Of a stretch of 64,000 bases of DNA, positions 6,714 through 10,315 are shown one piece after another. The DNA is from Spirochaetia bacterium (GTDB lineage: Bacteria > Spirochaetota > Spirochaetia > DSM-2461): contig CAXXIA010000002.1 of assembly GCA_963666985.2 (NCBI GenBank), positions 640,001 through 704,000 on the forward strand. The letters are read 5' to 3'. The notes under the pieces were generated by a model, which ran no database searches, had not been told where the DNA came from, and saw nothing but the letters and a program-made list of their open reading frames with translations. The translations under genes and the position numbers were made by a program. How positions within the stretch are numbered: the stretch's first letter is position 1; each line of letters opens with the position of its first letter.

Positions 6714-6854
6714 TACAGGGAGTGTATCCGCTCGCTTTTCTTTCGGCCATAGCCTCAAAAGAAGAGCTGATCGGCGGAACCGATCAGAAACCGATTAAGG
6801 TCCCGCGTCCCGATTCGGCCCTCGGCAGGCCCCCCAGCCCGAGAGAATCATGAT

Positions 6855-7259
6855 TTACAATGGGATTTTCCCAAGCAGAGCCTTAAGAACGAGTTCCGTT
6901 TCACCGCCGTTCAGCCCGAACATCACCGCCAGGATTCCCTGGAGATACAAAGCGGTCATCATGCGCTTTCGGGGATCGGCCGTTTGGCCGAAGCGCGATA
7001 GAAAGAAAGAATAAACCCTCGCCGAATCGGCTCCGTCCAGAATCATCCGCAATCCTTCTTCAAGAAAGAAAGGAAGATCTTTTTCATCAAGACGGGCTTC
7101 AAGAGCCAAAAGTCCGCTCCCGCGGGCCGTTGATTGGATTTCGCCAAGAAGACGCCGGAATTCATCTGTCTCTTCATCGAAAACGGAAGACGGATTCAGA
7201 TTTTCCAACACGTTTTCATCCCACAGGTCCATAACGGACTTCACGCCGTCCGAGAACAT
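6855..7259 (-). CDS. Small soluble protein resembling the MotA cytoplasmic domain without TM helices
   Basis: ARGSGLLALE...FLEEGLRMILDG matches the MotA ARREGLLALE...FL..GL..VDG loop. LQGILAVMFG...ELVLKALL resembles the MotA C-terminal EGVL..G..P..IE.KL tail. GGGGGTG SD lies inside the upstream gene's 3' end. Confidence 0.65.
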   Translation of the reverse strand: MFSDGVKSVMDLWDENVLENLNPSSVFDEETDEFRRLLGEIQSTARGSGLLALEARLDEKDLPFFLEEGLRMILDGADSARVYSFFLSRFGQTADPRKRMMTALYLQGILAVMFGLNGGETELVLKALLGKIPL

Positions 7260-8488
7260 GGAAACACCCCCGGCTCGTTTATGCTCTTATCGATATGATG
7301 CCTAACGCCGTATACAATAGCTTCCGTCCCTTTGCGCACCCCTTCCAGAGCGACGATACGTTCCCTGTAAGGGTCGTGAGAAATCGAGGCGTGGAGAAAT
7401 TCACTGTACTCCGGCGCCCTGTTTACCAGTTCCACCCGCGTAGGCAGTCCGAGAGACGATCCGATCACATCGGCCTGAATCGTATTATAAGATCTGCATC
7501 GGCCTCCGATGACGGACGATGCGCCGTTCGGGGAACAGTAGAGTCCGTCCACCGCCAGAATGTCGGATCCGAGAACATGAGCGGTAACCAATACGGGCAA
7601 GAAACTTGTAACGACGGAGTACTCGATATAAGGCGTTGTTAAACCGTTGACGGTTTTCACCAGACCGCCGGTGATTCCGCCGTCGACGGTCACCGGGCCT
7701 TTGGCATTGATAATGCCTCCCGGAAGCAGCCGGCCGGTAATTCTCACGGGGCCGGAATGGTCGATTCGATTATTTAAATCGCCCTCGATAATCAGCGCCT
7801 CCGGCGGCGGGGAATCAGCTTCGCCCGGAAACGGATCGGATACCGAAATGGCGCCGAGCAGCTGATTTATCTCACCCTGTGTGAGCTCGTTTTCGGCCGC
7901 CGCGGGTATGAGCGCTTCCTCCCGGGTGCAGGAATCGGAGCACCGTTCACCCTCGGGCGGCGCTGCGTTTTGATTTTTTTCAGCGCCGGCGGAAAAAGAC
8001 CGCGCGGCCGGGGCGGCATCGGAAGAAGTCGGAACTTCACACAGCCGATTGATTTCATCCCGACCGAGTTCTCTTCCGGCGGAAACCGGCCGTTCCGTTT
8101 TTCCGGAGACAGCGGATGAAACGGGAGGTCTTTCACAGCCGTCGGTATAAGGCAGGAAGAGATCGAGTACGTCTTGATGGAACCGTTCTCCGCCGGACGG
8201 GCCGCCGGTTCCGCACCGCCCCACCCTGAAGAGAACTCTCGCGACCGAATGAACCGCGGAGGCCGGCATTCCCTCGTCCAGAAGCCGCAGATAGAGACGG
8301 ATAACGGGATTGGAAAATTGATCGATTCGGGCGGCCGTTCCATGAATACCGCTTATCCGGACGGAAACGGCCGCGGATTCAAGTTCTCCTTTGTCCCCTT
8401 CGGGAACCGGAAGAGAGAGAACTTCGGGCATCGCGGCGAAATTCCCCTGAAATTGATAGAGTTCGTTCTGAGTCAATTCGGCGGACAT
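7241..8488 (-). CDS. FapA/DUF342-like C-terminal domain protein with FliM-N-like repeats
   Basis: C-terminal beta-helix-like repeats (IDHSGPVRITG...IINAKGPVTVDGGITGG...SVIGG...IGSSLGLPTRVEL). ELTQGEINQLLGAIS motif. GGAGG RBS before the ATG at 8488. Confidence 0.65.
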   Translation of the reverse strand: MSAELTQNELYQFQGNFAAMPEVLSLPVPEGDKGELESAAVSVRISGIHGTAARIDQFSNPVIRLYLRLLDEGMPASAVHSVARVLFRVGRCGTGGPSGGERFHQDVLDLFLPYTDGCERPPVSSAVSGKTERPVSAGRELGRDEINRLCEVPTSSDAAPAARSFSAGAEKNQNAAPPEGERCSDSCTREEALIPAAAENELTQGEINQLLGAISVSDPFPGEADSPPPEALIIEGDLNNRIDHSGPVRITGRLLPGGIINAKGPVTVDGGITGGLVKTVNGLTTPYIEYSVVTSFLPVLVTAHVLGSDILAVDGLYCSPNGASSVIGGRCRSYNTIQADVIGSSLGLPTRVELVNRAPEYSEFLHASISHDPYRERIVALEGVRKGTEAIVYGVRHHIDKSINEPGVFPCSRTA

Positions 8489-8569: not shown

Positions 8570-10039
8570 CTACCTTCCTCCCGAAAGAAAGCGCTTGGAG
8601 TTCTTTTCGGAAATCGCCCTCCACCACGAACCGAAGGCGTCTTTGTGGGATTGCAGATAGAAGCGGACATCGGGATCTTTCAAAGAAGTGAGGAAATAGT
8701 CCGATCCGTAGAGAATCTTCCTCTTTAAAGCCGGGCGGCGTTTTTTCATTCGATTCGCCAAGAGCGATAAATCCGCTTCGGCACCGGCATATCCGCTTAA
8801 ATCCACGTAAACGCCGCGCTTTTCGGACGCCTGCCGGAGCGCCCATGCGGCCCATCCCGAATGCTCGGGATTTTCCACCCATCCGGACGCATGAGGCGCG
8901 CCGCCGGCATGGGCGAAGTTGATGACCAAATCCGGCCAGCGCTTCAGGACTTTATCCCAGAGCCGGGGATGATTCAGTCTCATCTGCCGTTCCCTGACGG
9001 CCGCGTTAATGGTTCCGGGGGTCATTTTCACATCGAATCGGCAGATATCGGCGGAAAGAGGACCGCCGAAGAGAGGGTCGTAAACATCACCGCGGATTCG
9101 AATCGACTGAAGAGGCGTGGCGAACCCGCTCGGACTGAAATGGACGGTGATGGGAATCCGGTAGCGGGAGCAGTGGGCATAAAGACCTTTGGAATCGAAC
9201 AGCGCCGGATCGGTGGGGGAATATCCCGAGGAAGTGTAGAGTTTCACACCGGCGAAGGGGCGTCCCGGGCCGACATAATCACCGACGAACTCAACAAGAT
9301 CAACACCGTCCCGATGCCGGCGTCTGGGATCAATCCCCAAAAAAGGGTAAACACGGTCGGGGAAGGCGGCTTTCAGTTCGGTCAGTTCCCTCCGCTGCGT
9401 TTCGAAGCTTTCGTGGGCCAGAAGCCGCCGGGCGCCCCATTCCAGCCCGTCTCCGAAAAGGATGCGCCAAGCCTCTTCCAGCCGGTTCATCAGACGCCGA
9501 TGCGGCCATCGCTCCGAACGGTCGGTTCCTTCCGTATGTGCGGCGGCATCGAAGGGGGCGGAAATCTCCGGTTCGGGACGTGCCGGAAACAGGCTCCCGA
9601 AAATCCCGGAATACGCCGAGAACCCGCGGGCCCATGCGGAGTCGTCTTCCGAAAAGTCGGATGCATTGCCGCCGCGGACCGCTGAAGTCCGATGATGATC
9701 CTGCCGTTCCTTTTGCGGCTCCATGCTTCCGATGCCGTCGCCCTCATCGCCGTTCTCATGATTTACCAGCGCATATTCGATGTCCATCATCAGCGGGACG
9801 AACGACCATCCGGGACCGTAAGCATCGTCCAGACTCAACATGACTTCTTCGGGAGTGTCTTTCAAACCCGTATCGATGATGTCCATCAAGGCATTGGGAT
9901 TCAGTCCCTTTCGGCCGGATTCTTCCCCGCGAATCAATCCTTCCGCGGCAGAGGAAGCGCGAAGCAGCGCCACGAGACGCCCCGCTTTCGCCGAGAGCAG
10001 GGAACGCGTGAAGAAATGAACATGAGAATCGAGGGGCAT
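8570..10039 (-). CDS. Amidohydrolase_2 family metal-dependent hydrolase
   Basis: DSHVH metal motif at the N-terminus, plus GIDPRR, GVKLY, NFAHAGG, VYVDLS and ILYGSDY. Confidence 0.85.
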   Translation of the reverse strand: MPLDSHVHFFTRSLLSAKAGRLVALLRASSAAEGLIRGEESGRKGLNPNALMDIIDTGLKDTPEEVMLSLDDAYGPGWSFVPLMMDIEYALVNHENGDEGDGIGSMEPQKERQDHHRTSAVRGGNASDFSEDDSAWARGFSAYSGIFGSLFPARPEPEISAPFDAAAHTEGTDRSERWPHRRLMNRLEEAWRILFGDGLEWGARRLLAHESFETQRRELTELKAAFPDRVYPFLGIDPRRRHRDGVDLVEFVGDYVGPGRPFAGVKLYTSSGYSPTDPALFDSKGLYAHCSRYRIPITVHFSPSGFATPLQSIRIRGDVYDPLFGGPLSADICRFDVKMTPGTINAAVRERQMRLNHPRLWDKVLKRWPDLVINFAHAGGAPHASGWVENPEHSGWAAWALRQASEKRGVYVDLSGYAGAEADLSLLANRMKKRRPALKRKILYGSDYFLTSLKDPDVRFYLQSHKDAFGSWWRAISEKNSKRFLSGGR

Positions 10040-10315
10040 AACCACACTATATCGAAAGCGTGTGGAAGCTTCCATTCCGGGACGGCGGTACTCGGCCCGG
10101 TGCGCTCTGCGGCGCCCAACGGCTGAATACAATCGAACACGGACGATGCCGTTCCTCAGCCGATACGAATCATCACGGCCGAAATCGATCTGCGCCTTCC
10201 AAGAAAAATAAGTTCGGAATCAATCTTCAGCCGTTCGAGAAAGAACACCGCAAAATAGCCATAACGATCAGATATATACATTATTTTGATCTATAGATCA
10301 TCATTTCGCTTTTTA

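What the first reader, a model, noticed from the sequence alone, without database searches (positions are those of the whole stretch)
6855..8488. Orphan two-gene unit built from flagellar-motor interface pieces: candidate motor decoy/brake system
Seen: two overlapping, co-oriented genes with no flagellar genes nearby. Gene 1 carries FliM-N-like peptides, a degenerate MotA-like segment and a FapA/DUF342-like beta-helical C-terminus. Gene 2 is a MotA cytoplasmic domain with no membrane helices. Known: the FliM N-terminal peptide binds CheY~P, and the MotA cytoplasmic domain contacts FliG-C to generate torque. Inference: the pair could be soluble mimics that titrate CheY~P and/or occupy FliG, acting as a clutch, brake or switching-bias modulator. 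I know of no characterised system with this architecture.
Basis: partly seen in the sequence, partly recalled or inferred. Interest (0 to 1): 0.82.

Follow-up and report, generated by a model that had tools for sequence, protein, structure and literature searches.

The report
Soluble stator mimic with miniature clutch
A spirochaete carries two linked genes that encode stripped-down, membrane-free copies of the rotor-facing part of the flagellar stator and of the domain that clamps that part in a recently described motor clutch; the two are predicted (weakly) to bind each other and likely tune swimming, which is untested.

Summary
Observation largely confirmed. Gene 2 (134 aa) is the cytoplasmic domain of the stator protein MotA with all membrane helices cut out, its two cytoplasmic pieces joined into one confidently folded domain. 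It belongs to an unnamed family (145 of 149 top hits membrane-free, 79 with FliG_C). Gene 1 (415 aa) ends in a FapA beta-solenoid lacking the anchor domains and coiled coil, preceded by one good FliM-N-like peptide; two other peptides and the MotA-like segment are weak. The unit recurs in another genus (G046) and, in similar architecture, another family (G361). A 2026 preprint shows the FapA solenoid masks exactly this MotA surface as a clutch, so the pair looks like a soluble clutch plus its own target; complex prediction gave weak support (0.44 vs 0.00). Against: the unit is rare, gene 2 is broken in a close relative, no expression or binding data. The scan noted a membrane-free MotA before on other DNA (beside a FliN-FliG fusion).

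The parts
7241..8488 (-). Gene 1, 415 aa: N-terminal domain (about residues 1-120), low-complexity linker, FliM-N-like peptide, truncated FapA beta-solenoid
   Evidence: purifying selection on the C-terminal half, pN/pS 0.10
8123..8488 (-). N-terminal domain of gene 1; a separate gene in G046 (P0006); probably a degenerate mini-MotA with a weak FliM-N-like start
   Evidence: indirect support only
7844..7888 (-). FliM-N-like peptide, residues 201-215; likely CheY-P binding site (untested)
   Evidence: rank 2 of 35,917 frames after FliM itself; conserved in P0005, P0009 and G051
7244..7807 (-). FapA D5-like beta-solenoid with its C-terminal beta cap; the coiled coil (about 78 aa) and domains D1-D4 are absent
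   Evidence: (pLDDT 90)
6855..7259 (-). Gene 2, 134 aa: soluble mini-MotA (cytoplasmic helices before TM3 joined directly to the helices after TM4)
6767..6787 (-). Terminator-like hairpin with T-rich tail after gene 2
   Evidence: consensus match only

Best explanation
The unit encodes a membrane-free FapA clutch domain (gene 1) and a membrane-free copy of the MotA surface that FapA clamps (gene 2), which are predicted to bind each other and likely form an accessory clutch-and-decoy pair that tunes flagellar torque or reversal. Shown: the domain anatomy, the fold of gene 2, the linkage of the two parts in three genomes. From the literature: full-length FapA masks the rotor-facing side of MotA; CheY-P binds the FliM N-terminus. 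Inferred: gene 1, lacking the D1 anchor, acts as a diffusible clutch on stators; gene 2 holds it (and perhaps the native FapA proteins) away from the motor; the FliM-like peptide lets CheY-P bind gene 1 and so ties the balance to chemotaxis signalling.
For: Mini-MotA profile matches solved MotA in two pieces, 78-144 and 217-254, skipping TM3-TM4; model pLDDT 94; top six structural hits are all MotA/PomA, Z 10.7-12.8, rmsd 2.3-3.5 over 102-108 residues, next hit Z 6.0. FapA D5 solenoid binds three MotA subunits at the torque surface (preprint 10.64898/2026.10.14.759253, section 9). Same order of parts in G046 (three genes, 40% identity in the solenoid protein) and in G361 of another family (degenerate mini-MotA fused to a coiled-coil-less solenoid, then an intact mini-MotA). 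Of 16 mini-MotA loci examined, 3 have a FapA solenoid beside them, 7 a FliG_C domain fused or beside them, 6 neither, none both (one 14-bit solenoid score in G014 counted as no hit): both companions are binders of the same MotA face. Complex prediction, four gene-2 copies plus the solenoid: weak support, score 0.44 against best control 0.00, runs agree in at least 64% of contacts, partner pLDDT at least 82; this mark was reached by 116 of 157 solved complexes and 2 of 215 mismatches, but at 0.60 or under by only 18 solved ones and both mismatches. No FapA structure was found in the PDB copy, so a pass from memory is less likely. Gene 1's C-half is under purifying selection (14 synonymous, 4 non-synonymous codons).
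Against: In a close relative (run X3, 61 differences over 1670 aligned bases) gene 2 is broken by a 1-base insertion at 7064 and a 132-base deletion, with pN/pS 0.61, while gene 1 stays constrained, so the pair is not obligatory (the paralogue P0004 might stand in; not checked in that relative). G051 holds only an eroded version. The unit is rare: 3 of 401 Spirochaetia genomes for the G000 type, one of them eroded, 1 of 25 in the family of G361. The solenoid lacks the coiled coil that contacts two further MotA subunits, and the Glu before the conserved Thr of the MotA-inserting loop (22 of 27 full-length FapA) is replaced in 4 of 4 short forms; Arg235 is absent in 11 of 11 members of gene 2's clade versus 26 of 30 true MotA. 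That fits a private pair but weakens binding of gene 1 to real stators. In H. pylori no FapA-MotA interaction was seen by two-hybrid (10.64898/2026.10.23.761471). No sigma-28-like promoter upstream. The complex score is only weak.
Confidence: 0.42

Rival explanations
1. Reverse polarity: gene 2 is the effector, a soluble stator mimic that occupies FliG-C on the rotor and slows the motor; gene 1 is its mask, covering the FliG-binding face as FapA does on real MotA, and releasing it in response to CheY-P (closest to the first reader's brake).
For: Arg89/Asp97/Asp117 equivalents kept in gene 2; across the family Arg at the 89/90 position in 200 of 265 domains and Glu/Asp at 97/98 in 233 of 265; fused FliG_C domains keep the torque-helix Arg in 55 of 71; 79 of 149 hits carry FliG_C; matched drift of loop and Arg235 suggests a private pair.
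Against: Gene 1 stays under purifying selection where gene 2 has decayed; a single unanchored domain would compete poorly with anchored pentamers (inference); Arg is missing at that position in the closest homologue P0021 and in the paralogue P0004.
Confidence: 0.2
2. Decoy or insulated signalling module: the motor pieces are bait for proteins that normally attack or brake the motor (c-di-GMP PilZ brakes, FlhG, or foreign inhibitors), or have been reused as a generic binding pair in signalling unrelated to torque.
For: YcgR binds an isolated MotA cytoplasmic fragment in vitro (PMC10140304 passages); the genome has 4 PilZ-domain matches; many family members are fused to LRR or TPR arrays and sit in variable gene neighbourhoods; patchy presence.
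Against: No PADLOC or PHROGs match for 7 proteins; confinement to FliM-positive genomes and pairing with FliG_C or FapA point to the motor interface itself.
Confidence: 0.2
3. A dispensable relic: shuffled duplicates of flagellar gene pieces that persist with little or no current function and are being lost.
For: Pseudogene of gene 2 in a close relative, eroded unit in G051, absence from 13 of 13 congeners searched, low-complexity linker and degenerate peptides in gene 1.
Against: Clean internal deletions that leave well-folded domains; frame and order kept across genera at about 25-40% identity; pN/pS 0.10 on the solenoid half; 110 family representatives at E<=1e-10.
Confidence: 0.18

Closest known systems
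FapA (DUF342, PF03961) motor clutch of Borrelia burgdorferi (bioRxiv 10.64898/2026.10.14.759253; abstract, sections 9 and 11, passages read)
   Same: Beta-solenoid domain D5, the main MotA-binding module, with the loop region aligned to residues 484-491
   Different: No D1-D4 (no FlcA anchor), no coiled coil, loop Glu lost, FliM-N-like peptide added, encoded away from the flagellar cluster beside a soluble MotA copy
MotA/PomA stator A subunit (PDB 8bri, 6ysf, 6ykm, 8ucs)
   Same: Fold and motifs of the cytoplasmic domain; Arg89, Asp/Glu97, Asp117 equivalents
   Different: All four membrane helices absent, no motB beside it, cannot conduct ions; Asp232 and Arg235 equivalents lost
FliM/FliY N-terminal CheY-binding peptide (10.1101/2020.05.18.101634, passages read)
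   Same: One 15-residue peptide nearly matching the genome's own FliM start
   Different: No FliM middle or SpoA domain; binding untested
c-di-GMP brakes and clutches YcgR, MotI, FlgZ; stator chaperone FlgX (YcgR: passages of PMC10140304; others seen in search listings or recalled)
   Same: Proposed role: cytoplasmic modulation of the stator-rotor contact
   Different: No PilZ domain; built from copies of the motor's own interface parts
Helicobacter pylori FapA (bioRxiv 10.64898/2026.10.23.761471; abstract, sections 9 and 10 read)
   Same: FapA-family protein that limits motility
   Different: Full-length, binds cage protein PilM; no MotA or FliG binding detected there

Membership tests
MotA/PomA stator subunit (gene 2) | Cytoplasmic helical domain with the MotA fold | tested here: met
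MotA/PomA stator subunit (gene 2) | Four membrane helices | tested here: not met
   no hydrophobic window (max 1.36 vs 2.36 for MotA), TM3-TM4 skipped in alignment
MotA/PomA stator subunit (gene 2) | motB partner gene adjacent; NCBIfam cut-off | tested here: not met
   (27 bits vs 340)
MotA/PomA stator subunit (gene 2) | Rotor-contact charges (Borrelia numbering 89, 97, 117, 232, 235) | tested here: inconclusive
   3 of 5 kept
FapA (gene 1) | PF03961 beta-solenoid above cut-off | tested here: met
   model
FapA (gene 1) | N-terminal domains D1-D4 (PF20250) and D5 coiled coil | tested here: not met
FapA (gene 1) | Binds the cytoplasmic face of MotA | tested here: inconclusive
   weak predicted support with gene 2; native MotA not tested
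FliM/FliY | N-terminal CheY-binding peptide | tested here: met
   sequence match only, one peptide
FliM/FliY | CheC-like middle domain and SpoA domain | tested here: not met
PilZ brakes (YcgR/MotI/FlgZ) | PilZ domain | tested here: not met
   (none of the 4 genome matches is in the window)
Anti-phage systems with MotA-like parts (e.g. Zorya) | Match to PADLOC models | tested here: inconclusive
   no match at E<=0.01 for 7 proteins; the library dates from 2023
Motor clutch/brake (function) | Changes torque, speed or reversal in cells | not testable with these tools
   needs experiments

The most novel reading that the evidence does not exclude
Flagellated bacteria have repeatedly built a soluble 'shadow motor interface': an undescribed family of membrane-free MotA domains (one to five copies per protein, five matching the stator pentamer) packaged with either FliG-C or a minimal FapA clutch and CheY-binding peptides, which regulates the real motor by molecular mimicry; this locus would be a CheY-P-coupled clutch/anti-clutch pair of that class.
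Probability: 0.3. Interest if true: 0.9.

Novelty: new variant of a known kind. Interest (0 to 1): 0.72.

Why it matters
How stators are engaged and released is an open question; the Borrelia preprint states that control of the FapA clutch is unknown and reports unassigned densities beside FapA. A natural, soluble pair made of the minimal FapA binding domain and the minimal MotA surface would give a detergent-free system to measure and solve the clutch interface and the MotA-FliG contact, and, if active in cells, would be a way of regulating the motor by copies of its own parts. The wider mini-MotA family has no Pfam or NCBIfam model and I found no paper on it in the searches listed.

Tried and rejected
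Word-index searches found no relative of gene 2 and only a 97% identical copy of gene 1; relatives came from genome searches and the HMMER library. Collection scans for the short FapA found nothing: metagenomes, GTDB contigs; the mini-MotA alignment was too variable for locus scans, so no viral scan was made and the gene context of most family members (P0016, P0021, P0027 and others) is unknown. Foldseek gave no match at E<=0.001 for either model, though its top 14 listed rows for gene 2 were MotA/PomA. No RNA holder listed. No sigma-28-like or sigma-70-like promoter beyond chance. The third small ORF of G051 could not be shown to be a mini-MotA remnant. Tree of 36 solenoids: the four G000-type short forms are one clade (100/99), the place of the G361 form is unresolved, and the one-clade test did not finish; a 65-column tree puts G361's mini-MotA outside gene 2's clade, only a hint of separate origin. 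FliM-N-like peptides are uncommon in the family at large (3 of 149). Paper searches: 0 papers; uninformative, matched 'flight'; none described a membrane-free MotA family; subscription papers and bioRxiv supplements (including Supplementary Fig. 5 of the clutch preprint on FapA homologues) could not be seen and may bear on novelty. Binding of gene 2 to FliG and of the peptide to CheY was not modelled (single job spent on the pair). FlhG as a partner of EIDAL-type peptides was considered (PMC12826062 passages say FlhG binds FliM or FliY; the peptide as its site is recalled) and not tested.

Full report
Anatomy. The region holds two overlapping minus-strand genes, 8488-7241 (415 aa) and 7259-6855 (134 aa), between an amidohydrolase gene and an EamA transporter gene. 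The genome (4.86 Mb, 93% complete) has a full flagellar cluster on another contig with motA, motB, fliL, fliM, fliY, flhF, flhG, fliA and a 655-aa fapA (gene names other than those with family hits are my reading of the translations), FliG, further FapA-solenoid genes and a cheX-cheY pair.

Gene 2. It scores weakly against NCBIfam MotA models (E 1.5e-6, far under cut-off) and has no hydrophobic segment. A profile of 31 short relatives matches solved MotA chains in two pieces, residues 78-144 and 217-254, and the genome's own MotA likewise: the protein is the cytoplasmic domain with TM1-TM2 removed and TM3-TM4 excised. AlphaFold2 gives pLDDT 94, pTM 0.88; against 48,161 chains the six best are MotA/PomA (Z 10.7-12.8; next 6.0; the tool warns that Z under about 13 can be common for helical proteins, but the six stand apart and agree with sequence). 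A three-sequence profile found 1301 representatives at E<=0.001 (an unknown share are true MotA) and 110 at E<=1e-10. Of 149 listed hits other than the query member, 4 are true MotA and 145 have no pair of predicted membrane helices; they hold one to five copies of the domain (49 one, 79 two, 8 three, 3 four, 4 five, 2 partial; ranking favours repeats) and 79 carry a FliG_C-like domain. Pfam on 74 of them shows FliG_C, LRR and TPR companions. The ESM Atlas lists 23 unnamed clusters at 0.9 or more, commonest taxa Spirochaetota and Bacillota. The genome has a second stand-alone copy (P0004).

Gene 1. Residues 239-363 match FapA PF03961. Aligned with 27 full-length FapA D5 regions, gene 1 and three relatives lack the same coiled coil of about 78 residues but keep the C-terminal beta cap; the model is confident (pLDDT 90). 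Residues 201-215 match the genome's FliM N-terminus better than FliY does. The other two peptides and the MotA-like segment are not significant alone.

Conservation. G046 (same family, other genus) has the unit as three genes: a 120-aa protein matching gene 1's N-terminus, a 216-aa peptide-plus-solenoid protein (40% identical) and a mini-MotA, in different flanking genes. G051 has a truncated version. Two more short solenoid proteins come from metagenomes, context unknown. In 401 genomes of the class, 11 matched the short-solenoid profile at E<=1e-12; 8 were ordinary FapA-length or partial FapA frames and 3 the unit. G361, another family, has a degenerate mini-MotA fused to a coiled-coil-less solenoid, followed by an intact mini-MotA, without a FliM-like peptide noticed; it was found in 1 of 25 genomes of that family. 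With the broader profile 19 of 401 genomes matched at E<=1e-21; I dropped 4 whose match covered only the first piece in MotA-length frames, leaving 15, all FliM-positive, where 323 of 401 are FliM-positive. This threshold misses divergent copies (G033's fusion was not among them).

Why the two genes belong together. The Borrelia in situ structure (bioRxiv 10.64898/2026.10.14.759253; abstract, sections 9 and 11 and passages read) shows FapA's D5 solenoid on the rotor-facing side of three MotA subunits, a loop (484-491) in the cleft holding Asp117, Asp232 and Arg235, the coiled coil on two more subunits and D1 anchored on FlcA. Two fetched loci reproduce the paper's MotA numbering at 5 of 5 positions, which let me map these sites (that the FapA numbering also carries over is an inference). 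Gene 1 is thus the main MotA-binding module without anchor, and gene 2 is its natural target without membrane. In 16 mini-MotA loci the companion is FapA solenoid (3), FliG_C (7) or neither (6). The complex prediction passed weakly (0.44, best control 0.00; 64% contact agreement; pLDDT 82, with the calibration counts quoted under Best explanation); no contacts were given. The loop Glu is lost in 4 of 4 short solenoids and Arg235 in 11 of 11 of gene 2's clade, which may be matched drift; the text I read does not say these two residues touch.

Against. A relative at about 96% DNA identity has gene 2 frameshifted and partly deleted, with 12 non-synonymous and 6 synonymous codon changes, while the C-half of gene 1 shows 4 and 14 (only 40 of 59 differences were listed, one contig at depth 7; the truncated protein P0077 fits such a frameshift). 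The unit is absent from 13 congeners searched. Nothing here shows expression, binding or a phenotype.

Verdict. It works like a motor clutch/decoy module by inference; it is not a member of MotA, FapA or FliM as defined. I rate the clutch-and-decoy reading 0.42, the reverse polarity 0.2, decoy for other binders 0.2, relic 0.18. The E. coli residue labels R90/E98 and FliG R281/D288/D289/R297 used, and the sigma-28 consensus, are recalled.

Noticed in passing
G000:C2:2008311-2008685 (L002 1483-1857, minus): Second stand-alone mini-MotA (124 aa, P0004) between a sugar-binding protein gene and a DeoR-type regulator, with no FapA or FliG_C companion within 11 kb.
   Followed up: partly
P0011-P0015: Proteins with five tandem mini-MotA domains, four of them with FliG_C domains; five equals the MotA number in a stator, and none had six or more.
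   Followed up: partly
L053 3224-5452 (G033); L077 (G303); many hits: Fusions of mini-MotA repeats with FliG_C and LRR or TPR arrays.
   Followed up: partly
L082 (G397): Tandem genes each with a mini-MotA followed by FliM-N-like peptides; three matches in this contig.
   Followed up: no
L075 1420-1833 (G073): Stand-alone mini-MotA directly after a gene that looks like flaA (my reading of the translation).
   Followed up: no
L078, L081: Stand-alone FliG_C gene immediately followed by a stand-alone mini-MotA gene.
   Followed up: partly
G000 C1:1077635, C2:297603, C2:1687010, C3:96104-97721: Four further FapA-solenoid loci besides the flagellar-cluster gene; the C3 copy is split over several frames (frameshifts or sequencing error).
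   Followed up: no
G000 C1:285585-285923 and C1:600671-601864: A short weak FliG_C-like frame and a divergent second FliG.
   Followed up: no
window 6760-6850: Several short inverted repeats between gene 2 and the EamA gene; the deletion in the relative ends at 6798 inside this stretch.
   Followed up: no
window 8570-10132 (minus): Amidohydrolase_2 gene with a long low-complexity insertion, 82 bases upstream of gene 1 and co-oriented; not linked to the unit in G046.
   Followed up: no
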